Origin: an uncultured Desulfobacteraceae bacterium
GTDB taxonomy: Bacteria > Desulfobacterota > Desulfobacteria > Desulfobacterales > JALSRD01
NCBI GenBank assembly: GCA_964476595.1
Contig: CAYZCL010000073.1
Location: 14,980-78,979 of the forward strand
Length of the DNA: 64,000 bases
Reading direction: 5' to 3'
Position 1 is the first letter of the stretch. Each line of letters begins with the position of its first letter. The position numbers and the translations under genes were made by a program. Under the pieces are notes generated by a model that was not told the origin of the DNA, did no database searches, and was given only the letters and a program-made list of their open reading frames with translations. Shown here piece by piece: positions 10,387 through 42,274 of the stretch.

Positions 10387-11217
10387 CTATTTCCAGGTGA
10401 TGCGCGGCGGTTTGCGCCGCGGCAGGCGATGGTAGATGAAGCGCGGGTAGCCCACCATCAGGGCGCCGAAAGTGGTGTGCCCCGGCGGTAGTTCAAGGGC
10501 CTCGCGCATGGCCGGCCAGAAGTTGCCGGCGGCGTTGAGGTATCCGGCCCAGCAGGCGCCTAGGCCGAAAGAGACGGCCGCCAGGTCCAGGTAGGTCAGC
10601 GCGATGGTGCAGGCCGCCGGAGCCGTGCGCTCGTCCTTCTGGGCATGGGCCACCACCAGGTGCGGCGCTCCCCGGCAGATGCGGTCTTTCCCCTCGGCTT
10701 GGGCGGCGACCACCCGGTCCAGGTGCATGGCCTCCGCCAGGGGGGACCCCTCGGCGATGAGATGGCGCATCCAGTCGATGACGATGCCGTTGAGGCGCTC
10801 GATTTCTTCCCGGTGGTAGATGACCCGCCAGTGCACCGGCTGCCGGTTGTGACCCGACGGGGCGTGGCTTGCGATCCCGATGAGCCGCGTCAGCGTCTCC
10901 CGCGGCACTGGCTTCCTGCGATAGTTGCGTATGGACCTCCGGGAGCGCAGGAAGTGCTCGGCCTGCTCCGGGTCCGGGATCCGCTCGGGGTGAAAGGGCG
11001 GGCAGTCCGCCGGGCCCATCACGCGGTGGGTCGCGGCGTCGCGGGGGCACACCGCCACGCAGTGGCCGCAGCGGATGCAGAAATCTTCGCCCCCCGCCAC
11101 CATGGCGGGCAGGGCGCCCTTTTCGGCAAATGCGATGATGCCGGCGGGGCAGGCGGCGATGCACCGGCCGTCGCGGTCGCACCGGTCGGGATCAACGGTC
11201 AGCATTGTCATGGGCAT
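10387..11217 (-). CDS. Nitroreductase family protein with N-terminal 2x[4Fe-4S] ferredoxin domain
   Basis: CIAACP and CIRCGHCVAVCP clusters, followed by the nitroreductase motif RRSIRNYRRKPV. Alternative starts at 11211 and 11205. Confidence 0.8.
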   Translation of the reverse strand: MPMTMLTVDPDRCDRDGRCIAACPAGIIAFAEKGALPAMVAGGEDFCIRCGHCVAVCPRDAATHRVMGPADCPPFHPERIPDPEQAEHFLRSRRSIRNYRRKPVPRETLTRLIGIASHAPSGHNRQPVHWRVIYHREEIERLNGIVIDWMRHLIAEGSPLAEAMHLDRVVAAQAEGKDRICRGAPHLVVAHAQKDERTAPAACTIALTYLDLAAVSFGLGACWAGYLNAAGNFWPAMREALELPPGHTTFGALMVGYPRFIYHRLPRRKPPRITWK

Positions 11218-12010
11218 CTCCTGTGGGAAAAGGGTTCGGGTGCTGCGCTTTTCCTCCGGCGGTCCGGATGATCACGCACCCGCCGCTGCCGTAACCGAAC
11301 CTGCGGAACAGCGGGTTGTAGTCGGCGCTCAGCGAACGGTAGAAGACGTCCAGCCCGACGCGGTAGGGACCGGGAGCCTCGGGGTCCACGTCCAGCAGGC
11401 TGACCAGGGAGTGGTGCGCGTCGAAGGCCCCCACCGGCGAGATGTGGGGAATGTGCAGCGTGCGCAGCACCTCGCCCTGGTCGAAATGGGCGATGACGAT
11501 CCGGTCCCCCCGGCTTTCGAACGATGCCAGGTGCCCCGCCAGCGCCCGTCGGATGCGGCCGGCCCGCCGGGAATCCTTGACGGCCCGGAGCACTTCCACG
11601 CAGCGGTATTCGATGCCGTAGGCCTTCAGGCTGCTCTCGACGATGCGGGCCAGCAGCGGCAGGGGCAGGCCGCGTCGACCATTATCGCCCGCGGGGCTCA
11701 TGCGCTGTTTCCAGTGGGCCGTGCCCACCGTGTCCAGCAGTTCGGCCTGGGTCACGGGCCGCGTCAGACGCCCGTTGGTCTCCAGCAGCGCGTTGATCAC
11801 GGTGGCCACAGTGGCCACCGAACAGGAGGCGGCGTTGAACTGGCGCACGTAGTGTTTCCACAAGGCGCATTTCAGGCCGTTGCCCGTTTCCGGGCAGGCG
11901 TTTTGCAGGGGCTGCACCAGCGGCCGTCCGAAGGCCCCGCGACCCGCGGCACGCTCGAACAGGTGGCACAGGCGAAGCCAGGCGAACAGAACGCTTCTGA
12001 GCAGGCGCAT
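11192..12010 (-). CDS. Phytochelatin-synthase-like (papain-fold gamma-glutamylcysteine transpeptidase/hydrolase) protein
   Basis: 272 aa. QFNAASCSVATVATVINAL matches the PCS catalytic Cys region. PHISPVGAFDAHHSLVSLLDVD matches the His and Asp region (GHFSPIGGY...D..LILDV in plant and cyanobacterial PCS). It has a hydrophobic N-terminus. The 3' end overlaps the nitroreductase start. Confidence 0.7.
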   Translation of the reverse strand: MRLLRSVLFAWLRLCHLFERAAGRGAFGRPLVQPLQNACPETGNGLKCALWKHYVRQFNAASCSVATVATVINALLETNGRLTRPVTQAELLDTVGTAHWKQRMSPAGDNGRRGLPLPLLARIVESSLKAYGIEYRCVEVLRAVKDSRRAGRIRRALAGHLASFESRGDRIVIAHFDQGEVLRTLHIPHISPVGAFDAHHSLVSLLDVDPEAPGPYRVGLDVFYRSLSADYNPLFRRFGYGSGGCVIIRTAGGKAQHPNPFPTGDAHDNADR

Positions 12011-12023
12011 GGGCAGATCCGTT

Positions 12024-12500
12024 TCAGGAGATGGCCACCGTTTCCGCGGCGGTGGCCCGCAGCAGCTCGGCGGCGGTCAGTTCCATCATGGCGTCCAGGT
12101 CGCCGCCGCCGCCGAAGATCGTGTCCTGGCGGGTGACGGCCGGGTCGAGCAGCGTGCGCAGCTTTCGCCGGTGGCCGAAGGGCGGCATGCTACCCACCAC
12201 GAAACCGGTGATTTCCAGGGCCTGTTCGGCGGTGGCGAACTTGACGCGGCGCCGGCTCATGTCGAGCGCGGCGGCCAGTTTGCGGCGGTCCACGCGGGCC
12301 AGGCCGTTGTTGATCACCAGCAGGGGCAGGCCATCGGCCACGAAGACCAGTGATTTGATGATCTGGTCGGTGGCCACCTTCAGCACCCGGGCCGCGTCTT
12401 CCACTGTGGCCGTGTGCTCGTCCAGGCGCAGGATGGCGGCCCGGATTCCGTTGCGTTCGATGTAGCGCTGCAGGTCGGCGCTTTTCAAGGGTGTATTCAT
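12024..12500 (-). CDS. YbaK/ProX-type aminoacyl-tRNA deacylase
   Basis: Track ORF 12024..12632 trimmed to MNTPLKSADLQRY. The pattern IIKSLVF...GFVVGSMPPFG is typical of YbaK/EbsC. Confidence 0.75.
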   Translation of the reverse strand: MNTPLKSADLQRYIERNGIRAAILRLDEHTATVEDAARVLKVATDQIIKSLVFVADGLPLLVINNGLARVDRRKLAAALDMSRRRVKFATAEQALEITGFVVGSMPPFGHRRKLRTLLDPAVTRQDTIFGGGGDLDAMMELTAAELLRATAAETVAIS

Positions 12501-12672
12501 GCCCCTGAAAATACATGCTGCACGTCCGGGACGCAAGCTTTTCGGCAGGCGGGGGATGTCGGGGGGATCGTCGGGCGGACGGGGGAAGCGCCCTTTGCGG
12601 GGGCGGCGTGCCTTCGCACCGGACCGTGGCACCCTCTTCCCGGACCCGTGCGGCCCGTTCCAGTCGACGGCT

Positions 12673-14768: not shown

Positions 14769-16949
14769 CTATTTGACCCAGTGCAGCACGTTGCGGATCA
14801 CGCACCAGCGCGGTTTCTTCTTTTCGGCGCCTTTGCCCAGGATCCAGCGGTCATAGGCTTCACGGGCACGATTGCTGTTTTTCATGACAGTCAGCCAGTT
14901 GTTGAGGTAAACCAGCAGGTTCTGGTTGCCCATGGCCACGCCGTAGCCCACCGGGAAGGTGGAGATTTTGGGTTTGGGAATCACCACGCCGTACTTGGGG
15001 TAGAGCAGCGACCAGGCAGACCCGGCCTCGGCGCTGATGGCCAGCGCGTCCCACGTACCGATGTTGCCCTCGAAGAACTGCAGGTACGAACTGATGGGCT
15101 CGATGGTAGCCTTGGGAAAGTTCTCCTTGATGCGTTTGATCAGGTACTCGTCGTTGAGCACGGCGATGGTCAGGTCGTCGCGCTGGCGGATCTCGTCGAT
15201 GTCGGCGAACTCCTGCTTGCGGTAGTCGGGCACCACGAAGGAGTAGGTCAGCTCCAGGCTGGGGTTGGTGAAGCTGATGTGGTCGAAACGGCTGGGGGTC
15301 ATGGCCACCCCGCCCATGGCCACGTCGATCTGCCCCTTCTGGATCATTTCCACCAGCCGGTCGTAGCGATAGGGAATGAAGACGATGTCGATCCCCATGT
15401 CCTGCTGCAGCTCGTAGGCCATGTCCACGTCGTAGCCCACCAGTTCCCCGGCCTGGTTGAAAAAAGTGAACGGCAGCGCGTCTTCGCTGTAGCCCACGTA
15501 GAGGAATCCGCGTTTGCGGATCTGCCCCAGTGTGCTGGGCTTGCCGGGGGCCGGGGGCAGCTTCTCGGCGCGTTTGTAGACCTTGGCTTTGAGGGGGACG
15601 TCCAGCACGTGCATGCGTTCGAGCACCTTATCGCGGTCGTACTTGTTCTCAACGGCGAAGTCGAAGTAGATGCGGCAGAGGAAGACGGCCGCAAGGCTGG
15701 CGATGACACAGATCACCCCCACGTGAATGACTTTTTTGAGGTAGCAGCGTCCCGTTTCCGTCATGGCACTGGTGGTCAGCAGCGTGAACACCAGCAGGTG
15801 CATGGCCGCCAGCAGGGTGGAGGTGCGCCCGTTGATGACGCCCGTCACCACGTAGAGCTGGTACATGTCTGCCGGCAGGTGCAGCAGGTTGAGCATGAAC
15901 GGCAGGGCCACGTCCACCCCGCCGAAGAAGGACAACAGGCCGGAGATGACGAAAGTGGGATACTGATTGAGCGCCAGGCTGCTGCCGGTGAACCACCCGG
16001 CAAAGGGGATGAACAGCAGCATAATGAGCTTGCCGGTGTTGGGGAAGTTGAACGACACGGGGATCATGACGTCGATGTAGATGTCGGTGTCCTCCCGCTC
16101 CATGTCGTACTGCTTGAACAGGGTCTTGCAGGCCTCGGTGAGCACCGGCAGCACCACGAAAAGGTTCCCTGTGGTGAAGGCTGTGATCAGCGCGTCGCGC
16201 GACAGGCGCATGATGTCGCCGTACTTGAAGGGCGTGCAGGGCTTGAGCAGCAGGGGAAGAATCAGGAAGCACAGCAGCAGCGCGGCCACGTTATAGCTCA
16301 CCAGGTAGACCTGCAGGCGGCCGAACTCCTCCACGCTCATGGTGCCGGCGGCGCTGGCCGAGATGGCGAAGACGCCGATGGGCGTCAGTTTAACCACCAT
16401 GCCGGTCACCTTCATCAAGGCCTCCGATGCGGTGCCCAGGGTGGCCAGGAAGGTGTCCTTCTTCTTGATGCCGATAACGGCGATGCCCACCAGCAGGCTG
16501 AACAGCACCACGGCCGGCACGATGTTGTTGGCCATGGCGTTGAAGGGGTTCGACGGGATGTAGAGGCGCAGGTAATCGATCTTGGGTGGCGGCTGGACCA
16601 TGGAGGTGGAGAAGAAGGAGGCCGACTCCCACTTGGGAAACGACAGCGGCATGAGCAGGATGATGGCGAAGACGATCACCCAGAACATCAGCTGCAGCAC
16701 GCCGGCCTTGACGGCCAGCATTCCGGCCTGGTCGTAGCGCAGACTGCCGATGGCCAGGATCAGCGAGACGATGATGTAGGGCAGGATGGTCATCTGCAGC
16801 AGGCCGATGAAGGCGTTGCCGATGATTTCCAGGGGCGCGCAGTATTCGCCGAAGAGGATGCCGCTCAAGATGCCCAGCACCACTCCCAGCAGGATGTAAG
16901 TGGAGAGGGTGAAGCGCTTTTCCCTGTGACGCGTTGGTTTCGCCTTCAT
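14769..16949 (-). CDS. Fusion protein: dicarboxylate/amino acid:cation symporter (DAACS/GltP-like) N-terminal domain plus family-3 periplasmic solute-binding domain
   Basis: Track ORF 14769..17252 trimmed to MKAKPTRHREKRFTLSTYILLGVVLGILSG. About 440 aa are polytopic and SDF-like (LLQMTILPYIIVSL). One extra TM follows, then an SBP_bac_3-like domain (GYDVDMAYEL...GQIDVAMGGVAMTPSR). Confidence 0.8.
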   Translation of the reverse strand: MKAKPTRHREKRFTLSTYILLGVVLGILSGILFGEYCAPLEIIGNAFIGLLQMTILPYIIVSLILAIGSLRYDQAGMLAVKAGVLQLMFWVIVFAIILLMPLSFPKWESASFFSTSMVQPPPKIDYLRLYIPSNPFNAMANNIVPAVVLFSLLVGIAVIGIKKKDTFLATLGTASEALMKVTGMVVKLTPIGVFAISASAAGTMSVEEFGRLQVYLVSYNVAALLLCFLILPLLLKPCTPFKYGDIMRLSRDALITAFTTGNLFVVLPVLTEACKTLFKQYDMEREDTDIYIDVMIPVSFNFPNTGKLIMLLFIPFAGWFTGSSLALNQYPTFVISGLLSFFGGVDVALPFMLNLLHLPADMYQLYVVTGVINGRTSTLLAAMHLLVFTLLTTSAMTETGRCYLKKVIHVGVICVIASLAAVFLCRIYFDFAVENKYDRDKVLERMHVLDVPLKAKVYKRAEKLPPAPGKPSTLGQIRKRGFLYVGYSEDALPFTFFNQAGELVGYDVDMAYELQQDMGIDIVFIPYRYDRLVEMIQKGQIDVAMGGVAMTPSRFDHISFTNPSLELTYSFVVPDYRKQEFADIDEIRQRDDLTIAVLNDEYLIKRIKENFPKATIEPISSYLQFFEGNIGTWDALAISAEAGSAWSLLYPKYGVVIPKPKISTFPVGYGVAMGNQNLLVYLNNWLTVMKNSNRAREAYDRWILGKGAEKKKPRWCVIRNVLHWVK

Positions 16950-17338
16950 GGGTCCTTCCGGTGGCCTGGGGCCGGTGCCGGGGTCGGCAACGGGTGCCGG
17001 TATTCGGCCCCCTCTACCACAAAGCCCGTCGCCTGCAAAGCGCAAAGTGATGGCGGCCGACGCGCCCGGTCCGGGAAACAGCCGGCAGGCACGGCTTTCA
17101 GCCGGCGACGGAGGTTCCCCGCGGCCGCCCCGTGCCGACGGCGCTGCGGCCTGTAAGGTTTGCCCCCGGCGGGCGACAGAATCTGCCGGGCCGGGGACAT
17201 CCGACGCGGTCGGCGGGGCGGCGGCGACCCGGCGCGCGACGGCCGCCCGCAACGCACCGACGGCCTTTGAAGCGCCGCCCGTCGAGACCGGGCAGGCGGT
17301 CCGCCGGCCGTCACGGCCCGTTATTCCAGGAAATCACG

Positions 17339-20300
17339 ATGCAGATACCCGAAAACATACATCGATGGAAGCGCCTCTCGTGGGAAGAGACGCCGATTTA
17401 CGTGTACCCCGAAGGGCCCGACTGGCTGGTGCCCAGCCCCAGCGGTGACCGGCTGTTGCGGCACCTGGCCGCCGGGGGGCATCCCCGGGAGCCGGCGGTG
17501 CTGTCGCAAAACGGCGACAGTGCCATGGCGCTGCTGCGCACTGAGCAGTTCCTGTCCCTGATCCCGCGAGCCAACGGCCGCCCCTACCGGGGGCGGGGCG
17601 CGGTGCTGACGCTGGAACGGCTGCGCGAGTGCTGGCTGCACATCACCGACCGCTGCAACCTGGCCTGCCGGCACTGCCTATTCGCCTGCTCCGCGGCCAC
17701 CCGCACCACCCTGCCGGCGGCGCGCATCGCGCGCGTCGTGTCCCAGGCCTATGCGCTGGGAACGCGCGTTTTCTACCTCACCGGCGGTGAACCGCTGGCG
17801 CACCCGGAGATCGATGCGGTCTGCCGGGAGATCCTGCTGGCGCACGACGACACCCTGCTGGTGATGCTCACCAACGGGCTGCTGATCCCTTCGCGGCAGA
17901 AGCTGCTGACGTCCCTGCCCGCCGACCGCCTGCACCTGCAGGTCAGCGTGGACGGCCTCGAAGCCGTCCACGATCGGCTGCGCGGCCGGGGCGGCTTCGC
18001 GCGGCTGGCGGAGATCATGGCGCGCCTGCCGGAACGGGGCCTGCGGGCGTCGCTGGCCATGGCCGTTCACGCCAGCAACGTGCACCAGATGGCCGACGTG
18101 GTGGACCTGGCCGCCCGCTGGGGGGCCGTGTCGGTGCACTACCTTTGGCTGCTGGTGACCGGCAAGGCGCGCCCGGCGGACTTCGTGGCGCCGCAGACCC
18201 TCTTTGCCCGCCTGGCCGACGCCCGGCAGCGGGCCGTGCGGCGCGGCGTCACCATCGACAACATCAGCACGCTGGAGTCACAGGTCTTCTCAGCGCCGGG
18301 CACGCGCCACGACCTGGGCAACGCCGCCTGGGAATCCCTGGCCGTGGGCCCCGACGGGCGCGTCTTTCCCACGCCGGCCCTGGTGGGGCAGGACGCGGCC
18401 TGCGCCGGTCACATCGACCGCGGGCTCGAACGCGTGTGGCGCGCAAGTCCCCTGTTCGAGGACCTGCGCCGCCGTTCGCTGGTGGACGTGCCCCGTTACG
18501 CGCGCAACCCGCTGCGCTTCCTGGTGGGCGGCGGCGACATCGACCACAGCTTCTACGCCGGCGGCGATTTCATCGGACACGACCCCTACGTGCCGCTGTA
18601 CAACCGCGTGGCCCTGTGGCGCATCGCCGCGGCCGCCCGGCGCGCACGGCGGATGCCCTGGCCCCAGGTGCGGCTGAAGATGGGCGACCGTCTGCTGCAG
18701 TGCCACAGCGCCGGCGACGGCGTGGCGCTGACCCACGCCAACTGCGTGCTGACCCTTTCGGCCACGCACCGCGTGGTGGGCGACTTCTACGCGCGGGCGG
18801 CCCGCGAACCCAGGACCGACATCCGCAACCCGGTCTGCTATCCCGAGGACGACGTGGCACACATCCCGGCCGAGGCGCGCGTGCGCTCCTACGGCTGCGG
18901 CAGCCCGGTGATGGACGCGGCCCTCGCCCCCGGCGAAACCGTGGTGGACCTGGGCAGCGGCACCGGCGTGGAGTGCTTCATCGCCGCGCGCCAAGTGGGC
19001 CCCCGGGGGCGGGTGGTGGGCGTCGACATGCTCGACGACATGCTGGCGCGTGCGCGCGCCGCCGCGTCAAGCGTCTCCCGGCAGCTGGGTTACGACAACG
19101 TCTCCTTCCGCAAGGGGTACCTGGAGGACCTGCCGCTGGAAGATGCCTTCGCCGACGTCGTGCTGTCCAACTGCGTCATCAACCTCAGCGAGGACAAGCG
19201 CCAGACCCTGGCCGAGATCCACCGTATCCTAAAGCCCGGCGGCCGCCTGGTGATCTCCGACGTGGTCACCGACCGGCCCTTTGCGCCGGCCATCGCCAAC
19301 GACCCGGTCCTGCGCGGCGAGTGCATCGCCGGCGCCATGGTGCAGGACCGCCTGCTGTCGCTGCTGGAGGCCGTGGGCTTTGCGAACATCCGCCTGATCA
19401 AACGTTTCTTTTACCGGCGCGTGCGGGGGCACACCTTCTACTCCCTGACGTACGCCGCCGTGCGTCCCGCGCCGCCCGTGCGGCGCAGCGTAATCTATCC
19501 CGGCCCCTACGCCGGCGTGGTCACCGACAGCGGCCGCCTGCTGCTGCGCGGCCGCAAGACCGAGCTGGACTGGAGCGAGCAGGTCGACGACGCCGGCGCC
19601 ATCCTGCTGCTCGACGAGGCGGGCAGCGCGGTCAACACCGCCTCGGAAAACACCTGCGCCTGCCAGGCGCCCCCCGAGGCGCGCGGCAGGGACGGCGGCG
19701 GGGCGCCGGCCGAGGCGCTCATCCCGGCCGCCGACCGCTTCCTGACACCCCCGGGGAAGTCCCGGACCGGCTGCATGCGCTGCGGCGCGCCGCTGGCCTA
19801 CCTGGAACGCGACCGGCCCGAGCGCTGCGTGTTCTGCGGCGAGGTCGGGCCGGCCAACGCGGTGTGCGAGAAGGGGCACTTCGTCTGCGACCGCTGCCAC
19901 AGCCGCGATGCCGTGCACGTGGTGCGGCATCTGTGCCTGACGTCCACCGAGACGGACATGATCGATCTACTCAACCGCATCCGGCGGCACCCGGCGGTGC
20001 CCATGCACGGGCCGGAGCACCACTTCGCCCTGCCCGGCGTGATCGTGGCCGCCTACCGCAACAGCGGCGGGGCCGTCGGCGAGGCCGAGATTCTGTCGGC
20101 CATCGCGCGCGGGAGCGGCGTGCCCGGCGGCAGCTGCGGCTTCTGGGGCGCCTGCGGCGCGGCCCTTGGGGTGGGCATCGCCTTCGCCCTGCTGCTGGAG
20201 AGCAACCCCGTCAAGGCCGACCAGCGCCAGATCGCGCAGCACGTCACCGCGCAGCTGCTGCAGGCGTCGTCAGAGATCAAGGCCGCCCGCTGCTGCCAGC

Positions 20301-20449
20301 GCGAGACCTGGATGGCGCTGCAGAAGGCGGCCGAGCTGTCGCCGCTGCTGCTGCCCGTGCCGCTCACGGCGGACGGAAGCACGCGCTGCGCCCAGCGGGG
20401 CCTGAACAGCGAGTGCGCCGGCCCGCAGTGTCCTTATTACAAGGCCTGA
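17339..20449 (+). CDS. Three-part fusion: radical SAM domain (with Cys-poor SPASM-like region), ArsM-like SAM-dependent methyltransferase, and a C-terminal Cys-rich (zinc-ribbon-like plus CGAxxG-like) domain
   Basis: Track ORF 17132..20449 trimmed to MQIPENIHRW (ATG 17339). Radical SAM motif: TDRCNLACRHC. ArsM-like motifs: SYGCGSP, VVDLGSGTG, SNCVINL, RGECIAGA. C-terminal motifs: CMRCG..CVFCG..CEKGHFVCDRCH, GSCGFWGACGAALG, CAGPQCPYY. Confidence 0.8.
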   Translation: MQIPENIHRWKRLSWEETPIYVYPEGPDWLVPSPSGDRLLRHLAAGGHPREPAVLSQNGDSAMALLRTEQFLSLIPRANGRPYRGRGAVLTLERLRECWLHITDRCNLACRHCLFACSAATRTTLPAARIARVVSQAYALGTRVFYLTGGEPLAHPEIDAVCREILLAHDDTLLVMLTNGLLIPSRQKLLTSLPADRLHLQVSVDGLEAVHDRLRGRGGFARLAEIMARLPERGLRASLAMAVHASNVHQMADVVDLAARWGAVSVHYLWLLVTGKARPADFVAPQTLFARLADARQRAVRRGVTIDNISTLESQVFSAPGTRHDLGNAAWESLAVGPDGRVFPTPALVGQDAACAGHIDRGLERVWRASPLFEDLRRRSLVDVPRYARNPLRFLVGGGDIDHSFYAGGDFIGHDPYVPLYNRVALWRIAAAARRARRMPWPQVRLKMGDRLLQCHSAGDGVALTHANCVLTLSATHRVVGDFYARAAREPRTDIRNPVCYPEDDVAHIPAEARVRSYGCGSPVMDAALAPGETVVDLGSGTGVECFIAARQVGPRGRVVGVDMLDDMLARARAAASSVSRQLGYDNVSFRKGYLEDLPLEDAFADVVLSNCVINLSEDKRQTLAEIHRILKPGGRLVISDVVTDRPFAPAIANDPVLRGECIAGAMVQDRLLSLLEAVGFANIRLIKRFFYRRVRGHTFYSLTYAAVRPAPPVRRSVIYPGPYAGVVTDSGRLLLRGRKTELDWSEQVDDAGAILLLDEAGSAVNTASENTCACQAPPEARGRDGGGAPAEALIPAADRFLTPPGKSRTGCMRCGAPLAYLERDRPERCVFCGEVGPANAVCEKGHFVCDRCHSRDAVHVVRHLCLTSTETDMIDLLNRIRRHPAVPMHGPEHHFALPGVIVAAYRNSGGAVGEAEILSAIARGSGVPGGSCGFWGACGAALGVGIAFALLLESNPVKADQRQIAQHVTAQLLQASSEIKAARCCQRETWMALQKAAELSPLLLPVPLTADGSTRCAQRGLNSECAGPQCPYYKA

Positions 20450-20719: not shown

Positions 20720-23536
20720 ATGCCCGACGCCCGCTACGCCGCGCTGGCGGCCGAGCTGTGCCGCCGCATTCCCGAAAACCGCCTCTTCACCGACCCACTG
20801 CGCACTTACGCCTTCGGCACGGACGCCAGCTTCTACCGCCTCACGCCCCAGGTGGTCGTCAAGGTGCGCGACGAAGCCGAGGTGCGGCACGTGCTGGCCG
20901 CCTGCCGCGAGCGATCCCTGCCGCTGACCTTCCGCGCCGCCGGCACCAGCCTCTCGGGACAGGCCCTGAGCGACTCCGTGCTGGTGCTGCTCGACGAGGA
21001 CGGGTGGCGCCAGAGCCGCGTGTCGGCCGACGGCCGCCGCGTGGACCTGGGCGTGGGCCTGCTGGGCATCGAGGCCAACCGGCTGCTGGCGCCTTACGGC
21101 CGCAAGATCGGGCCCGACCCGGCCTCCATCAACGCCGCCAAGATCGGCGGCATCGTCTCCAACAACTCCTGCGGCATGTCCAGCGGCATCACCGAGAACA
21201 GCATGGGCACCCTGGCCGGCATGCGCCTCGTGCTGGTGGACGGCACCGTGCTGGACACGCGCGACGCGGACAGCCGCGAGGCCTTTGCCCGCCGGAGGCC
21301 GGACATCGTCGCGGGCGTCGTGGCGCTCTCCGAGCGGCTGCGGGCCCGACCCGACCTGGCGGCGCGCATCGCCCGCAAGTACCGCATCAAGAACACCACC
21401 GGGTACAGCGTCAACGCGCTGCTCGACTTTACCGATCCCGTCGATATCGTCGAACACCTCATGATCGGCTCCGAGGGCACGCTGGGGTTCATCGCCGAGG
21501 CCGGCTTCCACACCGTTCCGCTGGCCCGCCGCCGCGCTGCGGGCCTGCTGCTCTTTCCGGACATCGCCCACGCCTGCCGGGCCGTGGAGATCCTCAAGAA
21601 CTGCCGCGTGAACGCCGCCGAGCTCATGGACCGCGCGGCCCTGGCATCGGTGCAGGACAAGCCCGGCATGCCGTCCTACATCCGCGAACTGGACGATTCG
21701 GTTGCGGCCCTGCTGGTGCAGACCGAGGCCGACAGCCGCGGGGCGCTGGAGGAACAGGTGTCCGCCATCCTGGCGGGGTTCGAGGGTTTTGCGCGGGCAC
21801 GCGAATTCGTCTTCACCGACGACGAGGCGCAGATCGCGGCCCTTTGGAAGGTGCGCCAGGGCATTTTCCCTTCGGCCTGCACCGGACGCCCCGGCGGCAC
21901 CACCGTGATCATCGAGGACATCGCCGTGCCGCTCGCGCACCTGCCGGCCTGCCTGGAGGACCTGCAGCGGCTCTTCGGGCGCTACGGCTACCGCGATACC
22001 GTCATCTGGGGCCACGTCTTCGACGGCAACGTGCACTTCGTGCTGACGCCCGACTTCACCGACCCGGCCGAACTGGACCGCTACCGGCGCTTCATGGACG
22101 AGGTGGTCTCGCTGGTCGTCGACCGCTACGACGGCTCGCTCAAGGCCGAGCACGGCACGGGACGCAACATGGCCCCCTTCGTGCGCCGCGAGTGGGGCGA
22201 CGAGATCTACGCGGTGATGCGCGACATCAAGGCGCTCTTCGACCCCGACAACCTGCTCAACCCCGGCGTGATCATCAACGCGGACCCCGAGGCGCACCTC
22301 AGGGACCTCAAGCCCATGCCGGTGGCCCACGAACTCGTGGACACCTGCACCGAGTGCGGCTTCTGCGAGCGCAGCTGCGTGTCCCACGGCCTGACCCTCT
22401 CGGCCCGCCAGCGCATCGCGGTCTTTCGCGAGATGGCGCGCCTGGCCCGCAGCGGCGAGGACCCCGCGCGCCTGGAGCGCCTGCGGCGCGACTTCGCCTA
22501 CCAGGGCGAGCGCACCTGCGCCGCCGACGGTCTGTGCGCCGCCACCTGCCCGGTGGAGATCGACACCGGACGCCTGATCAAGGCGCTGCGCGAAAACAAC
22601 GCCGGTCCCCTGGCCGGAACGGTTGCCTGCAAGATCGGTGCGCACATGGACGTGGTCACCGCCGCCGCCCGCGGCGGCCTGGCGCTGCTCGACCGGGCCC
22701 ACGGCCTGCTGGGCGGCCGGCGCATGGCCGCCGCCGCGCGGGAACTGCACAGGCTCTCGCAGGGGCGCCTGCCCCTGTGGACGCCGGCCATGCCGCGTCC
22801 GGCCGCGCCGCCGGTAATCAAGAGGCGCACGGCGCACGCGCGGGTGGTCTACCTGCCGTCGTGCATCAGCCGCACCATGGGGCCGGCCTGCGGCGAGGAC
22901 TGGCCGCCCCTGGCGCAGGTGACCCACGCCTTGCTGGAAAAGGCCGGCTTCGCCGTGGTCTACCCGCGGCGGATGGCGCGCCTGTGTTGCGGCATGCCCT
23001 TTGCCAGCAAAGGGCTGCGGCAGGCCGCGCGCGAGCGTGCGCGCGACATGCAGCACGCCCTGCTGGAGGCTTCCGACGGCGGCCGCCTGCCGGTGCTGTG
23101 CGACACCAGTCCCTGCCTGCTGCACATGCGCGAGACCCTGGACAGCCGCCTCGATCTGTACGAACCCATCGGTTTTACGCTGTCGCACCTGGCGCCGCGC
23201 CTGCACTTTGAAAAGCGTCCGGGCGCCGTCGCCGTCCACACCGTGTGCAGCGCCCGCAAGATGGGCCTGGAACAGGACTTCCTGCGCCTGACCGGCATGT
23301 GCGCCGAAAAGGTGGTGGCCCCCGAGGTCAACTGCTGCGGCTTCGCCGGCGACCGCGGTTTCACCGTTCCCGAGCTCAACCGCCACGGCCTGCGCCGCCT
23401 GAAACAGCAGTTGCCGCCGGAGGTGACGGAGGGCTATTCCACCAGCCGCACCTGCGAGATCGGCCTGACGGCCCACGGCGGCATCTCCTACCGCTCGATC
23501 CTGTACCTGGTGGACGCCGTCACGCGGCCGCGCTGA
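20720..23536 (+). CDS. FAD-binding oxidoreductase fused to an Fe-S/CCG domain (D-lactate dehydrogenase type)
   Basis: Track ORF trimmed to MPDARYAAL, with SD AAAGGAG upstream. It has an FAD_binding_4-like N-terminus (FRAAGTSLSGQA), 4Fe-4S motifs CTECGFCERSC and CAADGLCAATCP, and C-terminal CCG-type Cys motifs (CCGMPF, CCGFAGD). Confidence 0.85.
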   Translation: MPDARYAALAAELCRRIPENRLFTDPLRTYAFGTDASFYRLTPQVVVKVRDEAEVRHVLAACRERSLPLTFRAAGTSLSGQALSDSVLVLLDEDGWRQSRVSADGRRVDLGVGLLGIEANRLLAPYGRKIGPDPASINAAKIGGIVSNNSCGMSSGITENSMGTLAGMRLVLVDGTVLDTRDADSREAFARRRPDIVAGVVALSERLRARPDLAARIARKYRIKNTTGYSVNALLDFTDPVDIVEHLMIGSEGTLGFIAEAGFHTVPLARRRAAGLLLFPDIAHACRAVEILKNCRVNAAELMDRAALASVQDKPGMPSYIRELDDSVAALLVQTEADSRGALEEQVSAILAGFEGFARAREFVFTDDEAQIAALWKVRQGIFPSACTGRPGGTTVIIEDIAVPLAHLPACLEDLQRLFGRYGYRDTVIWGHVFDGNVHFVLTPDFTDPAELDRYRRFMDEVVSLVVDRYDGSLKAEHGTGRNMAPFVRREWGDEIYAVMRDIKALFDPDNLLNPGVIINADPEAHLRDLKPMPVAHELVDTCTECGFCERSCVSHGLTLSARQRIAVFREMARLARSGEDPARLERLRRDFAYQGERTCAADGLCAATCPVEIDTGRLIKALRENNAGPLAGTVACKIGAHMDVVTAAARGGLALLDRAHGLLGGRRMAAAARELHRLSQGRLPLWTPAMPRPAAPPVIKRRTAHARVVYLPSCISRTMGPACGEDWPPLAQVTHALLEKAGFAVVYPRRMARLCCGMPFASKGLRQAARERARDMQHALLEASDGGRLPVLCDTSPCLLHMRETLDSRLDLYEPIGFTLSHLAPRLHFEKRPGAVAVHTVCSARKMGLEQDFLRLTGMCAEKVVAPEVNCCGFAGDRGFTVPELNRHGLRRLKQQLPPEVTEGYSTSRTCEIGLTAHGGISYRSILYLVDAVTRPR

Positions 23537-24321: not shown

Positions 24322-24729
24322 TCAGAACTGCTTGAAGATACGCGCCAGGGGCCGTCCGGGGGCCTCGATGCGCAGGTCGTGAAAATAGCCGTAGGGGGTC
24401 TGCACGGTCTCGTAGCCGGCCTGCGCGAGGCGGTCCTGGGCGCGGTCGAGCAGCGCCCGGGCGGCGTCCGGATCGGCCTTTTCCTCGGCCAGGTGGGTGA
24501 AGGAGTGCAGGATCACCCGCCGGATGTCCCACTTGCGCGCCAGCCACTTGGCGTTTTTAACCAGCTTGGTTTCGGCCGAGCTTCCCCCTTGCACGTCCCC
24601 GGGTTCGACGTGCACGAAGGCCACCACCCCCTTTTCCCAGTCCGCCGGCTCGGCCGCCGGGGCGTCTTCCAGGGTCTTCATGGCCGGCTGCCAGGCGAAG
24701 CGCTCGCAGTACCAGAACAACACGCGCAT
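24322..24729 (-). CDS. Stand-alone protein resembling the archaeal-type threonyl-tRNA synthetase editing domain (tRNA-Thr_ED / DTD-like fold)
   Basis: Track ORF trimmed to MRVLFWYCERFAW, with SD GGAGAA upstream. The pattern MR.L...C..F......VVAFVHVE......W.A.K......VILHSFTHLAEEKADP..A..LL.....L...GYETVQTPYGYF matches my recollection of ThrRS-ED. This was not verified by search. Confidence 0.55.
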   Translation of the reverse strand: MRVLFWYCERFAWQPAMKTLEDAPAAEPADWEKGVVAFVHVEPGDVQGGSSAETKLVKNAKWLARKWDIRRVILHSFTHLAEEKADPDAARALLDRAQDRLAQAGYETVQTPYGYFHDLRIEAPGRPLARIFKQF

Positions 24730-24757
24730 GAATTTCTCCTTCCGCGGTGAGTGATCG

Positions 24758-25483
24758 CTAGGCGGCACGTTCGACGAGACGGCCGTCCGCCAGCTCGGTG
24801 ATCCGGTCCGCCACGCGGTGCACCTGGTCCAGGTAGTGCGAGACCATCAGGATGGTGCAGCGCCGCTTGAGGTGAATCAGGAGCTTTTCTATCACCCCGG
24901 CGGCGGCGGTGTCCAGAGAGGATGTGGGTTCGTCCAGCAGCAGGACCTCGGGTTCCAGCACCAGGGCGCGGGCGATGCACAGCCGCTGCTGCTGGCCGCC
25001 GGACAGCTGCGTGGCGTCCGCATCAAGGCGGTCCCTGACCTCGTCCCAGAGAAAGGCCGAGCGCAGGGCGCTCTCCACCCGCCGCGCGATTTCGCCGGGC
25101 TTGCGGCGGCCGGCCAGCCTGAGGGGAAAGGCCACGTTGGCGGCGATGCTCATGGGCAGGGGGTTGGGGGTCTGGAACACCATGCCCACCCTGCGCCGCA
25201 GGGCGGGCAGGTCACAGGAGGGCGCGTAGATGTCCTCCCAGCGGTCGCCGAAGCGAATGCGCACGCGGCCGCTCAGGCGGGCGCCGGGCACATCCTCCCA
25301 GAGGCGGTTGAAGACGGTCAGCAGGGTGGACTTGCCCTTTCCCGAAGGCCCCACGATGGCCGTGATGCGGTGCGCCTCGAAGGCGGTGCTGATGTCATCG
25401 AGCACCTTGATGCCCCCATAGGAAAAGGACAGGTGCGAGACCGTGATCTTGGCCCGGCCGGCCGGTGGCTGCGGGTGATTCAC
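24758..25483 (-). CDS. pstB: Phosphate ABC transporter ATP-binding protein PstB
   Basis: GTG start at 25483 (VNHPQPP...) overlaps the pstA stop (GTGA). Walker A GPSGKGKST, signature LSGGQQQR, Walker B LLLDEPTSSLD. Confidence 0.9.
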   Translation of the reverse strand: MNHPQPPAGRAKITVSHLSFSYGGIKVLDDISTAFEAHRITAIVGPSGKGKSTLLTVFNRLWEDVPGARLSGRVRIRFGDRWEDIYAPSCDLPALRRRVGMVFQTPNPLPMSIAANVAFPLRLAGRRKPGEIARRVESALRSAFLWDEVRDRLDADATQLSGGQQQRLCIARALVLEPEVLLLDEPTSSLDTAAAGVIEKLLIHLKRRCTILMVSHYLDQVHRVADRITELADGRLVERAA

Positions 25484-29200: not shown

Positions 29201-29472
29201 ATAACTCGCCGTCTGCCGTCGTCGTTGGGCGTTTTCCGCCGCGTTGCCCCTGCAGCCGAGTGGAATGGCAGGCCGCATGACCCGGCGGAAGCGGGCGGCG
29301 AAGGGCGCCGACGGCTCACATGCCGACGGCGGCTTGGGATCGCCCCTTGCCTCCGACAATCTTTACTTGACCGCCGGAGCGCGGCCACATATCATGTTAT
29401 TTGTTGGAAACTATTTCTCCAGCCAACGCAATCCAACCCCAAGCGTCAACCGAAGTCAAAGGAGGACAACCC

Positions 29473-30471
29473 ATGAAGAAACTGCTGATTTTCGCGCTGT
29501 GCATGTTCTTGGCCACGACGGCCTTTGCGGCCGACAGCGCCCAGCTGGAAAAGGCCAAGGCCGAGGGACAGGTGTCGTTCTACGCCAACATGACCGCCAT
29601 CCAGCCCATCATGGACGCTTTCAACGCCCAGACCGGGCTCAAGGGCAGGTACACGCGCATCTCGACCTCCAAGTTCCTGCCCACGGTGCTCACCGAGTTC
29701 CAGGCCGGAAAGCTCATGGCCGACGTGCTGCAGGCGCCGCTGCCGGTCATGGAGATGCTCAAGGCCAAGGGCGTCCTGACGGCCTACAAATCACCGGCCG
29801 CCGCCGGCTACCCCGACTGGACGCGCAAGGACGACACGATCCAGGTGTTCGGCATCGAATACGTGGCCCTGATTTACAACAAGGACCTGGTCAAACCCGC
29901 CGATGTGCCCAAGCGCTACGAGGACCTGACCGATCCCAAGTGGAAGAACAAGATCGTCATGGCCAACCCCGCCACGCACGCCACCACCATCGCCTGGCTG
30001 GTGGGGCTCAAGGAAAACGTCTTCAAGTCCGAGGCCGAATGGATGAAATTTCTCAAGGGACTGGCCGCCAACCGACCCATGTTCGTCAAATCCTTCGGGC
30101 CCACCCCGGCGCCCATCGAGAGCGGCGAGAAGCTCATCGGCATCTCCATGCCCAAGTACATCATCACCAAGGCCCCGGCGCCGCTGGACTGGGCGCGCGT
30201 CAGCCAGCCCCTGCTGGGAACGCCGCGGGGCATCGCGCTGTCCGCCAGCGCCAAGCACCCCAATGCCGCCCGGCTGTTCATGAACTACTGGCTTTCCAAG
30301 AAGGCCATGGGCATGCTGGCCAGGAACGTGGGTGAATACGTGCTGGCCCCGGGTGTCTTTCCGCCCATCGACGGCATCGACAAGGCCAAGGTGATCCCCA
30401 TCCGCACGCTGTCGGACAAGGAAATCCGCAGCTGGGGCGCCAAGTTCAAACAGATCTTCAGCGCCTCGTAA
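29473..30471 (+). CDS. ABC transporter substrate-binding protein (family 1, Fe(III)/AfuA-FbpA-like)
   Basis: Track ORF trimmed to MKKLLIFALCMFLATTAFA (signal peptide). SD AAGGAGGA upstream. Confidence 0.8.
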   Translation: MKKLLIFALCMFLATTAFAADSAQLEKAKAEGQVSFYANMTAIQPIMDAFNAQTGLKGRYTRISTSKFLPTVLTEFQAGKLMADVLQAPLPVMEMLKAKGVLTAYKSPAAAGYPDWTRKDDTIQVFGIEYVALIYNKDLVKPADVPKRYEDLTDPKWKNKIVMANPATHATTIAWLVGLKENVFKSEAEWMKFLKGLAANRPMFVKSFGPTPAPIESGEKLIGISMPKYIITKAPAPLDWARVSQPLLGTPRGIALSASAKHPNAARLFMNYWLSKKAMGMLARNVGEYVLAPGVFPPIDGIDKAKVIPIRTLSDKEIRSWGAKFKQIFSAS

Positions 30472-30540
30472 CAGGCCCGCTCCGGGTCCGACCGCACGTC
30501 CCCCTGCGTGCGGTCGGACCGCCGACACAGGCAGACCGAC

Positions 30541-31629: not shown

Positions 31630-31643
31630 GCGAGGCGAAGCTC

Positions 31644-42058: not shown

Positions 42059-42274
42059 AGTTCTCCGAAGCCCATTATTTTACTTGCATTTTGCGCTTGT
42101 TTTGCCGAATTAGGGACTAGGTGTGGGAGCGGCGTTTTTTCGGGTTCTCGAACCGCTTTCCGCATCCGGGTATCCGTGGAAAAGCCGGGAATGGGGGCAG
42201 ATCACTTTTTCCGGGTGTTGTGAATGCAATGCATGGTCGCCGGGTGTAAGCGCATGGCCTACAAGGAGACGAAC

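What the first reader, a model, noticed from the sequence alone, without database searches (positions are those of the whole stretch)
17339..20449. Single-polypeptide fusion of a radical SAM enzyme, an ArsM-like methyltransferase with the full As(III)-binding Cys triad, and a Cys-rich domain
What the sequence shows directly:
- a radical SAM CxxxCxxC motif (TDRCNLACRHC);
- a region shaped like a SPASM domain but lacking its Cys ligands (VGPDGRVFPTPALVGQDAACAGHI...VWRASPLFEDLR);
- a methyltransferase with SAM motif VVDLGSGTG;
- three Cys contexts, SYGCGSP, SNCVINL and RGECIAGA;
- about 300 aa with zinc-ribbon-like CxxC pairs and GSCGFWGACGAALG.

Established knowledge, recalled from memory: in ArsM the equivalent Cys residues (CmArsM Cys72/174/224) bind As(III). 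Organoarsenical pathways pair ArsM with separate radical SAM enzymes, ArsS for arsenosugars and ArsL for arsinothricin.

Inference: this protein may carry out both C-metalloid bond formation and methylation in one chain. That would make it a candidate for an undescribed organo-arsenic (or Sb/Se/Te) biosynthetic or detoxification enzyme. The gene is monocistronic by appearance and diverges from the DAACS-SBP fusion gene.
Basis: partly seen in the sequence, partly recalled or inferred. Interest (0 to 1): 0.75.

Follow-up and report, generated by a model that had tools for sequence, protein, structure and literature searches.

The report
Radical-SAM–arsenite methyltransferase–DUF5714 fusion enzyme
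One 1036-residue protein joins a radical-SAM enzyme, an arsenic-type methyltransferase and an uncharacterised cysteine-rich metal-binding module; relatives sit in operons with "arsenosugar" glycosyltransferase genes, so it is probably an unstudied organo-arsenic biosynthesis enzyme of anaerobic sulfate-reducing bacteria.

Summary
Window 17339-20449 (+) is one 1036-aa gene with five parts:
- an RRE-like N-terminus;
- a radical-SAM core (CxxxCxxC, GGE);
- a SPASM-shaped region that has lost its cluster cysteines;
- an ArsM-type methyltransferase whose three As(III)-binding Cys align with CmArsM C72/C174/C224 and are (near-)invariant in 119 homologues;
- a CxC linker, two zinc-ribbon-like sites and a full DUF5714 domain.

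The architecture is conserved in more than 120 protein clusters (46-90% identity), mostly Desulfobacterota. These are annotated only generically, and I found no paper on them.

New evidence comes from gene neighbourhoods. Of 54 related loci, 17 place the gene next to TIGR04282/TIGR04283 "arsenosugar biosynthesis glycosyltransferases", DUF3047, DedA or an FAD disulfide reductase, often with overlapping stop and start codons. None of 68 ordinary ArsM loci carries the two transferases. No ArsS-type gene was seen in these clusters.

The radical-SAM domain is not ArsS. Its nearest named family is Rv1681, and its fold resembles CteB and anSME. The DUF5714 module has no solved structural relative. 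It recurs fused to an ArsC-like phosphatase beside a heavy-metal ATPase.

Best reading: an organo-arsenical biosynthetic enzyme combining As methylation with radical As-C bond formation. The chemistry is untested, and in this window the gene stands alone.

The parts
17339..20449 (+). Whole gene, 1036 aa: radical SAM - ArsM-like methyltransferase - DUF5714 fusion
   Evidence: Translation. Pfam and NCBIfam matches. The same ORF is called elsewhere. More than 120 full-length homologue clusters exist.
17339..17578 (+). N-terminal small domain (residues 1-80), three strands then helices, RRE/PqqD-like topology
   Evidence: AF2 secondary structure: E11-15, E18-23, E28-32, H34-44, H61-73. The Foldseek alignment to CteB 5wgg spans 465 columns. 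The StsB NCBIfam match starts at residue 13. The RRE assignment is an inference.
17621..18238 (+). Radical SAM core (residues about 95-300), with the C106-x3-C110-x2-C113 cluster motif at 17654-17677 and T148-GGEP
   Evidence: PF04055 E 3.6e-17. C106/C110/C113 and TGGEP are invariant in 119 sequences.
18251..18658 (+). SPASM-shaped region (residues about 305-440) without the canonical Cys ligands; invariant GGGDIDH at 18524-18547
   Evidence: PqqE alignment. Comparison with the L015 and L142-type variants shows stepwise Cys loss. Fold hits: anSMEcpe, CteB, PqqE.
18668..18748 (+). Beta-hairpin linker carrying C455-x13-C469 (118/119 and 119/119 conserved) and H466
   Evidence: Cys census. AF2 strands 444-447 and 462-465. 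Role unknown: candidate metalloid site or auxiliary-cluster site, by inference.
18764..19648 (+). ArsM-type As(III) SAM methyltransferase (residues 476-770). SAM motif at 18941-18967. As(III)-site Cys: C520 (18896-18898), C612 (19172-19174), C662 (19322-19324).
   Evidence: NCBIfam PRK11873 229.6 bits. PDB phmmer hits to CrArsM and CmArsM with the Cys aligned. Foldseek 6cx6 E 8e-19. Cys conservation 118-119 of 119.
19649..19753 (+). Disordered linker (residues 771-805) with near-invariant C773-x-C775 (19655-19663)
   Evidence: pLDDT below 50 for 771-805. C773 in 114/119 and C775 in 118/119.
19754..19918 (+). Two zinc-ribbon-like sites: C812/C815/C830/C833 and C843/H847/C850/C853(H854)
   Evidence: All invariant in 119 fusions, and invariant or nearly so across 62 fused plus stand-alone module sequences. 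Beta hairpins in the domain model.
19922..20440 (+). DUF5714 helical domain (residues 862-1034). Conserved features: HGPEHH, C933, C939, R984-C985-C986 (20288-20296), C1017, C1026, C1031.
   Evidence: PF18978 E 1.2e-56 over 1-173/173. MbdU NF045648 at 131-135 bits. Domain model pLDDT 95.5. No PDB fold match at E <= 0.001.

Best explanation
The gene encodes a multi-domain SAM-dependent enzyme of organo-arsenical biosynthesis, typical of anaerobic Desulfobacterota.

**Shown**
- It contains an intact radical-SAM core.
- It contains an ArsM-type methyltransferase with the complete As(III)-binding cysteine site.
- It contains a conserved Cys/His-rich zinc-ribbon plus DUF5714 module.
- Orthologues are repeatedly encoded in operons with the TIGR04282 and TIGR04283 'arsenosugar biosynthesis' transferases, DUF3047, a DedA membrane protein and an FAD disulfide reductase.

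**Inferred mechanism**
1. The ArsM domain binds As(III) on C520/C612/C662 and methylates it with SAM to methyl- and dimethyl-As(III).
2. The radical-SAM domain has lost the SPASM auxiliary clusters needed for oxidative cross-linking. It reductively cleaves a further SAM and adds the resulting carbon radical to the trivalent arsenic, making a second kind of As-C bond. The radical is most likely 5'-deoxyadenosyl, as in ArsS. The product would be a dimethylarsinoyl-nucleoside-type intermediate.
3. The flexible CxC linker and the DUF5714 module (vicinal C985-C986 and other Cys) hold and pass the metalloid between sites, or supply reducing equivalents.
4. Where the transferase genes are present, they turn the product into sugar-type organoarsenicals.

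In this window the transferases are absent from the 64 kb. Here the enzyme may act alone, or with the downstream FAD/Fe-S/CCG oxidoreductase.
For: **Domains and As site**
- Domain matches.
- The As-site Cys align to CmArsM and are conserved in 118-119 of 119 homologues.
- The top structural matches are As(III) methyltransferases, including the As(III)-bound 6cx6.
- The radical-SAM motifs are invariant.
- The SPASM Cys are lost.

**Gene neighbourhood**
- Of 54 loci with the full fusion, 17 carry at least one module gene. Of the 26 loci with at least 5 kb on both sides, 12 do, and 9 of those carry TIGR04282/3.
- Gaps to the neighbours range from -7 to +19 nt.
- Neighbours pass NCBIfam curated cut-offs in L003, L084, L086, L113, L119, L128, L130 and L142.
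- Control: 0 of 68 ordinary ArsM loci have the two transferases.
- No ArsS-type gene was seen in these clusters.
- More distant rSAM/SPASM-ArsM fusions (L015, L142) also abut TIGR04282.

**DUF5714 links to metal(loid) handling**
- It occurs fused to an ArsC-like LMWPc next to HMA and a P-type ATPase.
- It occurs fused to ArsM-like methyltransferase alone and to rSAM alone.
- It is related to the 'metal-binding double selenoprotein MbdU' (PMC13188914).

**Precedents**
- ArsS adds 5'-dA to a dimethyl-arsenical.
- ArsL binds As(III) through a C-terminal RCCLKC motif.
- Both from bioRxiv 10.64898/2026.04.29.721666.
Against: - No biochemical data exist for any member.
- The window and 37 of the 54 related loci show no transferase or ars genes nearby. 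The association is frequent, not universal.
- The transferases' 'arsenosugar' names are curators' inferences from co-occurrence with ArsS, not assays.
- Three TIGR04282 neighbourhoods examined elsewhere had no radical-SAM partner at all.
- The radical-SAM domain is unrelated to ArsS (TIGR04167 below 44 bits against a cut-off of 300). Its nearest structural relatives are peptide-modifying enzymes with an RRE-like N-terminus.
- The methyltransferase scores below the NCBIfam ArsM cut-off (229.6 against 263).
- The Cys44 equivalent (C500) is conserved in only 88 of 119.
- Cluster partners such as rhodanese, DedA and disulfide reductases would fit selenium or sulfur chemistry equally well.
Confidence: 0.45

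Rival explanations
1. It is a detoxifying As(III) methyltransferase only. The ArsM domain does the chemistry. The radical-SAM and DUF5714 parts serve accessory roles: reductive regeneration of the catalytic cysteines, electron delivery, metalloid capture, or anaerobic C-As bond cleavage. They do not build a new As-C bond.
For: - The ArsM domain is complete.
- The gene is solitary in this window and in most loci, as resistance genes can be.
- DUF5714 occurs with ArsC-like and heavy-metal efflux genes.
- ArsM turnover requires disulfide reduction; this rests on established knowledge of CmArsM and AS3MT.
Against: - There are no arsR, arsB, acr3 or arsC genes nearby, in the window or in related loci.
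- The SAM-cleavage motifs are invariant over a 46-90% identity range, which argues for a catalytic radical step.
- The operon links are to glycosyl- and nucleotidyl-transferase-like genes, not to efflux.
Confidence: 0.15
2. The same architecture acts on another soft metalloid or chalcogen, such as Sb(III), selenium or tellurium. It would make a methylated or adenosylated seleno- or stibio-compound that feeds the transferase module.
For: - Cluster partners include rhodanese, DedA, a MerA/glutathione-reductase-like FAD disulfide reductase and an HdrD-like Fer4-CCG protein. All are typical of S/Se trafficking.
- The transferases were first named 'rSAM/selenodomain-associated'.
- Relatives of both the methyltransferase and DUF5714 exist as selenoproteins (PMC13188914).
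Against: - The three-Cys site is the signature of As(III)/Sb(III) binding in solved ArsM structures, which are the best sequence and fold matches.
- No selenophosphate synthetase or Sec machinery was seen in the clusters.
- Selenium in those relatives is a catalytic residue, not shown to be the substrate.
Confidence: 0.15
3. The radical-SAM half is a RiPP-type or small-molecule C-H activating enzyme, with RRE-like N-terminus and SPASM fold. The methyltransferase then methylates a thiol or carbon of that substrate. The ArsM resemblance reflects ancestry, not arsenic chemistry.
For: - The best fold matches for residues 1-470 are peptide maturases: CteB, SkfB, SuiB and anSME.
- The N-terminal topology is that of an RRE.
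- The NCBIfam nearest families are SPASM maturases and the uncharacterised Rv1681 family.
Against: - No conserved small precursor-peptide gene or protease/transporter set lies next to the gene in 54 loci.
- The auxiliary-cluster Cys that SPASM cross-linkers need are gone.
- All three As-site Cys are kept invariant, which is unexpected for a thiol or C-methylase.
Confidence: 0.12

Closest known systems
ArsM / AS3MT, As(III) S-adenosylmethionine methyltransferase (CmArsM 4fr0/6cx6, CrArsM 5evj, human AS3MT 8xt7)
   Same: - Class I methyltransferase fold plus the As-binding and C-terminal beta domains.
- 30-33% identity over about 280-300 aligned columns.
- The three As(III)-ligand Cys are in register.
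-.
   Different: - Here it is the middle third of a 1036-aa protein.
- It scores below the NCBIfam cut-off (229.6 against 263).
- The Cys44 equivalent is only 74% conserved.
- An extra invariant C469 lies upstream.
- A CxC linker replaces the usual C-terminal Cys tail.
ArsS (TIGR04167), arsenosugar radical SAM (seleno)protein
   Same: - A radical SAM enzyme followed by a Cys/Sec-rich domain.
- The same hallmark neighbours: TIGR04282, TIGR04283, and the DedA and FAD-reductase genes.
- Proposed to work like it: carbon-radical addition to a methylated As(III).
   Different: - Not a member: TIGR04167 is not among the 25 best NCBIfam hits (below 44 bits, cut-off 300).
- The C-terminal domain is DUF5714, not DUF3641.
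- It is fused to its own methyltransferase.
- It is of SPASM-type ancestry.
ArsL + ArsM (arsinothricin pathway)
   Same: - Pairs a radical SAM As-C bond former with an ArsM methylase.
- ArsL binds As(III) with a C-terminal RCCLKC motif. DUF5714 has an invariant R-C-C.
-.
   Different: - In the arsinothricin pathway these are two separate proteins.
- ArsL generates a 3-amino-3-carboxypropyl radical.
- No sequence relationship was detected here, and the gene neighbourhood differs.
SPASM/twitch radical SAM maturases (CteB 5wgg, anSMEcpe 4k37, PqqE 6c8v, SkfB 6efn) and the Rv1681 family (NF049973)
   Same: - Overall fold of residues 1-470 (TM-score normalised to the target, TMt: 0.70-0.74).
- N-terminal RRE-like unit.
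- The best NCBIfam score is to the Rv1681 family (about 90 bits).
   Different: - All seven SPASM Cys are absent. The positions are replaced by an invariant GGGDIDH and by PT.
- No precursor peptide gene.
- Fused to a methyltransferase.
DUF5714 (PF18978) / MbdU metal-binding double selenoprotein (NF045648)
   Same: - Full-length DUF5714 match (E 1e-56).
- Shares a zinc-ribbon plus helical module with about 1,000 protein clusters, most of them stand-alone proteins of about 240 aa.
   Different: - Here it is C-terminal to two enzymes.
- Not MbdU itself (135 bits, cut-off 600).
- Cys-Cys where MbdU is reported to have Cys-Sec. This alignment was not verified.

Membership tests
ArsM / AS3MT (NF008823, PRK11873) | Rossmann-type SAM methyltransferase fold with a GxGxG SAM motif | tested here: met
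   Methyltransf_31 E 2.7e-32. VVDLGSGTG at residues 535-543. Foldseek to 6cx6/4fr0 E about 1e-18.
ArsM / AS3MT (NF008823, PRK11873) | Three conserved As(III)-binding cysteines (CmArsM C72, C174, C224) | tested here: met
   The phmmer alignment places C520, C612 and C662 on YGCGS, SNCVCNLS and GECLGGA. They are conserved in 118, 119 and 119 of 119 homologues. Three-dimensional superposition of side chains was not possible, because no coordinates are returned.
ArsM / AS3MT (NF008823, PRK11873) | Fourth N-terminal Cys (CmArsM C44) for the disulfide cascade | tested here: inconclusive
   C500 lies at the expected place but is conserved in only 88/119. The invariant C469 lies 51 residues before C520.
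ArsM / AS3MT (NF008823, PRK11873) | Score above the curated NCBIfam cut-off | tested here: not met
   229.6 bits against a cut-off of 263. The match covers profile positions 40-231 of 272.
ArsM / AS3MT (NF008823, PRK11873) | Methylates As(III) with SAM | not testable with these tools
   Needs an enzyme assay with HPLC-ICP-MS.
ArsS (TIGR04167) | Match to the ArsS model above cut-off 300, with a C-terminal DUF3641 Cys/Sec domain | tested here: not met
   The N-terminal 480 aa were scanned alone. TIGR04167 is not among the 25 best, so it scores below 43.8 bits. No DUF3641 appears in Pfam.
ArsS (TIGR04167) | Gene neighbourhood with TIGR04282 and TIGR04283 transferases | tested here: inconclusive
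   Met in 13 of 54 related loci, with curated-cut-off matches. Not met in this window.
ArsS (TIGR04167) | Transfers 5'-deoxyadenosyl to dimethyl-As(III) | not testable with these tools
   Inference only.
Radical SAM superfamily (PF04055) | CxxxCxxC cluster motif and GGE SAM-binding motif | tested here: met
   C106/C110/C113 and T148-G-G-E-P are invariant.
SPASM/twitch subfamily | C-terminal 7-Cys (SPASM) or partial (twitch) motif ligating auxiliary Fe-S clusters | tested here: not met
   The PqqE alignment shows the Cys replaced. A graded loss is seen across the L015, L142-type and query families. The fold is retained. Three other conserved Cys (355/356, 455, 469) could still bind something.
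DUF5714 (PF18978) | Full-length match above the gathering score | tested here: met
   191.4 bits against 26.2, positions 1-173/173.
MbdU (NF045648) | Score above cut-off 600, two selenocysteines, 468-position architecture | tested here: not met
   131-135 bits over profile positions 39-267 only. No in-frame TGA.
ArsL | C-terminal CCxxC As(III)-binding motif and ACP-radical chemistry | tested here: inconclusive
   Only an R-C-C resemblance at 984-986. No ArsL model appeared among the NCBIfam hits listed. The chemistry is not testable.

The most novel reading that the evidence does not exclude
A single polypeptide converts inorganic As(III) plus several SAM molecules into a dimethylarsinoyl-nucleoside, or another non-methyl organoarsenical, under anoxic conditions. 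It does so with a radical-SAM lineage that arose independently of ArsS and ArsL from SPASM peptide maturases. DUF5714 would be a previously unrecognised metalloid-binding and hand-off domain, reused in sensors, ArsC-like reductases and methyltransferases. This would make sulfate-reducing Desulfobacterota an unrecognised source of complex organoarsenicals in sediments.
Probability: 0.3. Interest if true: 0.85.

Novelty: new variant of a known kind. Interest (0 to 1): 0.68.

Why it matters
Only two radical-SAM routes to As-C bonds are known, ArsS and ArsL. Both act as separate partners of ArsM. The origin of complex organoarsenicals in anoxic sediments and paddy soils, where sulfate reducers drive arsenic methylation, is poorly understood.

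This family would supply three things:
- a third, independently evolved radical-SAM partner, covalently fused to its methyltransferase;
- a handle on the function of the widespread TIGR04282/TIGR04283/DUF3047/DedA module;
- a first functional context for DUF5714, which spans about 1,000 protein clusters, has no literature and has no solved fold.

The family is directly testable by heterologous expression.

Tried and rejected
**Neighbourhood clustering, first pass**
- Clustering the first 15 genomic loci found nothing conserved in three or more loci. On that basis I nearly concluded that the gene is always solitary.
- The genome scan had been diverted by generic ArsM motifs, and 68 of its 80 loci were ordinary ArsM.
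- A second scan with radical-SAM-specific motifs on metagenomes revealed the transferase module.

**Downstream gene**
- I tested whether the downstream FAD-oxidase/Fer4/CCG gene is homologous to the Fer4-CCG proteins of the module. There was no BLAST hit, so only synteny with an 81% relative remains.

**Sequence scans that found nothing**
- Rfam scan of the window: no match.
- Promoter and terminator scan: uninformative.

**Fold search**
- The DUF5714 model against PDB gave no match at E <= 0.001.

**DUF5714 context**
- Neighbourhoods of two stand-alone DUF5714 genes were uninformative.
- I tried to verify that MbdU's Cys-Sec motif aligns with C985-C986 by inspecting homologue sequences. The result was inconclusive.

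**Organism names**
- Cluster look-up returned no names.

**Literature**
- DUF5714 appears in 0 papers.
- No paper on rSAM-ArsM fusions turned up.

**Artefact check**
- A fusion artefact from misassembly or frameshift is rejected. The same architecture occurs in more than 120 clusters from NCBI, JGI, ENA and Logan.

Full report
**1. The observation**

Window 17339-20449 (+) is a single ORF of 1036 codons. It starts at an ATG preceded by AGGAA. The longer GTG-initiated reading from 17132 only adds an Arg/Pro-rich stretch. Gene callers on two other assemblies that carry the identical protein use the same start.

| Match | Residues | Score |
|---|---|---|
| Pfam Radical_SAM | 102-257 | E 3.6e-17 |
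| Pfam Methyltransf_31 | 531-677 | E 2.7e-32 |
| Pfam DUF5714 (full length, 1-173/173) | 862-1034 | E 1.2e-56 |
| NCBIfam arsenite methyltransferase PRK11873 | 493-689 | 229.6 bits, cut-off 263 |
| NCBIfam MbdU 'metal-binding double selenoprotein' | 810-1035 | 131 bits, cut-off 600 |

Several other ArsM-type NCBIfam models also match. For the N-terminal half the matches are SPASM-type radical SAM families, led by the uncharacterised Rv1681 family.

**2. The methyltransferase is ArsM-like in sequence, fold and active-site cysteines**

- The best PDB sequence matches are arsenite methyltransferases: CrArsM 5evj at 3e-37, and CmArsM 4kw7/4fr0 at 3e-36. Human AS3MT 8xt7 also matches.
- The printed alignments put C520, C612 and C662 on CmArsM YGCGS, SNCVCNLS and GECLGGA. 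These are the As(III) ligands C72, C174 and C224.
- An AlphaFold2 model built on 119 homologues has mean pLDDT 87.9 and pTM 0.74.
- Foldseek ranks As(III)-bound CmArsM 6cx6 first (E 8e-19, about 280 columns, 32-33% identity). Other ArsM entries, CrArsM and AS3MT follow.
- Across the 119 homologues the three Cys are kept in 118, 119 and 119 sequences.
- The equivalent of the fourth catalytic Cys (C500) is kept in only 88 of 119.
- An upstream C469 is invariant, including in more distant fusion variants.

**3. The radical-SAM half**

- C106/C110/C113 and the TGGEP motif are invariant.
- Structurally, residues 1-470 resemble RRE-bearing SPASM maturases: CteB 5wgg (465 aligned columns; TM-score normalised to the target, TMt, 0.70), anSMEcpe (TMt 0.74), SkfB, SuiB and PqqE.
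- The first 75 residues have the three-strand-plus-helices topology of a peptide-recognition element. That assignment is an inference.
Against PqqE the 'PC' becomes 'PT', and 'WGGCRCQ' becomes the invariant 'GGGDIDHS'.
- Related fusions show a graded loss: the full CxxCx5Cx3C motif in L015, CxxCx5Cx3D in L142-type proteins, and no Cys in the query family.
- Three other conserved Cys remain: C355/356, and a C455-x13-C469 hairpin. Their role could not be determined because the tools return no model coordinates.

**4. The C-terminal third**

- After the ArsM C-terminal beta domain comes a disordered linker (771-805, pLDDT below 50) carrying a near-invariant C773-x-C775.
- Next come two zinc-ribbon-like sites: C812/C815/C830/C833 and C843/H847/C850/C853.
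- Last is the helical DUF5714 domain, with HGPEHH, C933, C939, R984-C985-C986, C1017, C1026 and C1031.
- Searched alone against 1.8 billion representatives, the module matches 1035 clusters at E <= 0.001. Most of the 150 best hits listed are stand-alone proteins of about 230-250 aa.
- Other architectures exist:
  - rSAM + DUF5714 without a methyltransferase;
  - ArsM-like methyltransferase + DUF5714;
  - DUF5714 + LMWPc (the ArsC-type fold);
  - GGDEF + DUF5714;
  - DUF5714 + SBP + protein kinase;
  - DUF5714 + alanine-racemase-like domain.
- The DUF5714-LMWPc gene lies directly upstream of an HMA protein and a P-type ATPase in three places.
- A domain-only model is very confident (pLDDT 95.5). 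It has no PDB fold match at E <= 0.001.
- The review PMC13188914 lists MbdU with a 'CU' motif. Its correspondence to C985-C986 is plausible but unverified.
- ArsL binds As(III) with a C-terminal RCCLKC motif (bioRxiv 10.64898/2026.04.29.721666). The R-C-C resemblance is a lead, not a test.

**5. Distribution**

- More than 120 clusters (90% identity level) share the full architecture at 46-90% identity and 1010-1110 aa.
- Named sources are almost all Desulfobacterota: Desulfoluna, Desulfobacter, Desulfosarcina, Desulfosalsimonadaceae, Desulfurivibrionaceae, Dissulfurirhabdus, Ca. Electrothrix, Desulfomonile and Hydrosulfovibrio. Single MAGs come from Chitinivibrionales, Pirellulaceae and 'Pseudomonadota'.
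- Annotations are generic: 'DUF5714 domain-containing protein' or 'methyltransferase domain-containing protein'.
- The window comes from a metagenome contig, ERZ27262694, 92 kb.

**6. Gene neighbourhood, the main new evidence**

In this window the gene is solitary.
- Upstream and divergent lies an SDF symporter-SBP fusion.
- Downstream lies a GlcD-like FAD oxidase/Fer4/CCG protein, then a DJ-1/PfpI protein.
- No ars, transferase, DedA or DUF3047 gene occurs anywhere in the 64 kb.

In Desulfobacter hydrogenophilus the orthologue sits in a same-strand run:

DedA-FAD disulfide reductase -> fusion -> TIGR04282 -> DUF3047 -> TIGR04283.

Both transferases score above NCBIfam curated cut-offs, 198.8 against 134 and 228.4 against 182.

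A metagenome scan with radical-SAM-specific motifs, followed by BLAST, gave these counts:

| Set of loci | Number | At least one module gene | TIGR04282/3 present |
|---|---|---|---|
| Full three-domain ORF | 54 | 17 | 13 |
| Of these, at least 5 kb on both sides | 26 | 12 | 9 |
| Ordinary ArsM loci (control) | 68 | not assessed | 0 |

- Spacing is operonic, from -7 to +19 nt in L084, L085, L086, L113 and L119.
- Ten further neighbours all passed the curated cut-offs.
- Matching contig lengths between the homologue lists add at least seven more co-resident pairs. This is a heuristic.
- Additional recurrent neighbours are a Fer4-CCG protein (7 loci), rhodanese (5) and DedA (13).
- No ArsS-type radical SAM gene was seen in these clusters. 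The one stand-alone rSAM near a TIGR04282 gene (L163) belongs to the same Rv1681-like clade, with ArsS at only 61 bits against a cut-off of 300.
- More distant rSAM/SPASM-ArsM fusions lacking DUF5714 (L015, L142, L143) also abut TIGR04282 or DedA.
- TIGR04282 family members carry the older name 'rSAM/selenodomain-associated transferase 1'.
- One TIGR04282 neighbourhood is embedded among pentose-phosphate genes.
- Caveat: three TIGR04282 neighbourhoods inspected elsewhere had no adjacent radical SAM gene. The 'arsenosugar' names are curator inferences.

**7. Interpretation**

Shown:
- a conserved three-enzyme-module protein with an intact radical-SAM site and an intact ArsM As(III) site;
- frequent operon linkage to the transferase module that NCBI associates with arsenosugar biosynthesis.

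Inferred:
- The ArsM domain methylates As(III).
- The radical-SAM domain no longer has the auxiliary clusters used for oxidative cross-linking. It adds a SAM-derived carbon radical to the methylated As(III), most plausibly 5'-deoxyadenosyl, by analogy with ArsS.
- The CxC linker and DUF5714 shuttle the metalloid or electrons.

I put 0.45 on this overall reading. The sub-claim that the protein handles arsenic or a similar metalloid deserves more. The specific adenosylation step deserves less.

Rivals:
- detoxifying methylase with accessory domains, 0.15;
- a different metalloid or chalcogen, 0.15 (the rhodanese, DedA and disulfide-reductase partners fit selenium too);
- a peptide or small-molecule C-H chemistry with a non-arsenic methylation, 0.12.

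**8. Comparison and novelty**

- It works like ArsM plus ArsS (or ArsL) but is a member of neither radical-SAM family.
- The methyltransferase is ArsM-like but scores below the curated threshold.
- The C-terminal module is a bona fide DUF5714.
- No paper mentions DUF5714, and none describes an rSAM-ArsM fusion in the searchable library.
- I rate it a new variant of a known kind, organo-arsenical SAM enzymology, with a genuinely unknown third domain.
- Interest is 0.68. The case is well supported bioinformatically, widespread and experimentally tractable, but the chemistry is unproven.

Noticed in passing
window 20720-23536 (+): A GlcD-like FAD oxidase fused to Fer4 and CCG (HdrD/GlpC-like) domains lies 270 bp downstream on the same strand. 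In an 81%-identical relative (L178) the same gene follows the fusion after only 80 bp. It could be an electron-supply partner. It shows no BLAST similarity to the Fer4-CCG proteins of the transferase clusters.
   Followed up: partly
window 11192-12010 (-): A phytochelatin-synthase-like protein (PF05023, E 5.6e-8) lies 5 kb upstream. It is another thiol/metal(loid)-related gene in the neighbourhood.
   Followed up: no
window 14769-17252 (-): A sodium:dicarboxylate symporter (SDF) is fused to a periplasmic SBP_bac_3 domain, divergent from the target gene. Other gene callers start it at about 16949 (726 aa).
   Followed up: partly
window 24322-24768 (-) and 12024-12632 (-): A free-standing archaeal-type threonyl-tRNA synthetase editing domain (PF08915) and a YbaK-like tRNA_edit protein, both as separate small genes.
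   Followed up: no
window 42000-44700: G+C drops to 0.567, against about 0.66 elsewhere. One 711-aa ORF (42523-44658, +) was not annotated. It may be acquired DNA.
   Followed up: no
L015:10001-12043; L142:9704-12178; L143-L145, L150: A second, more distant class of rSAM/SPASM-ArsM fusions (about 820-845 aa) lacks DUF5714 but keeps the As-site Cys. Its SPASM Cys motif is progressively degenerate. These also lie next to TIGR04282 or DedA genes.
   Followed up: partly
L166-L168:8001-9077: A DUF5714 + LMWPc (ArsC-like) fusion, seen on many contigs, lies directly upstream of an HMA metallochaperone and a P-type ATPase.
   Followed up: partly
L176:94-10161: The TIGR04283/DedA/DUF3047/TIGR04282/FAD-reductase module is interleaved with glucokinase, transketolase, transaldolase, ribose-5-P isomerase and ribulose-P epimerase. 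This hints at a pentose-derived product.
   Followed up: no
L169:6001-6726: A stand-alone DUF5714 protein (P0159) occurs on another contig of the same metagenome sample (ERZ27262694) as the window, next to LPS-type glycosyltransferases and a chemoreceptor.
   Followed up: no
window 33889-35043 (+) with 29401-33329: A CobW/HypB/UreG-type metallochaperone GTPase lies downstream of an ABC importer (SBP, ATPase with TOBE, permease). The same arrangement appears in the relative L178, there with PadR and a thioredoxin-like gene.
   Followed up: no
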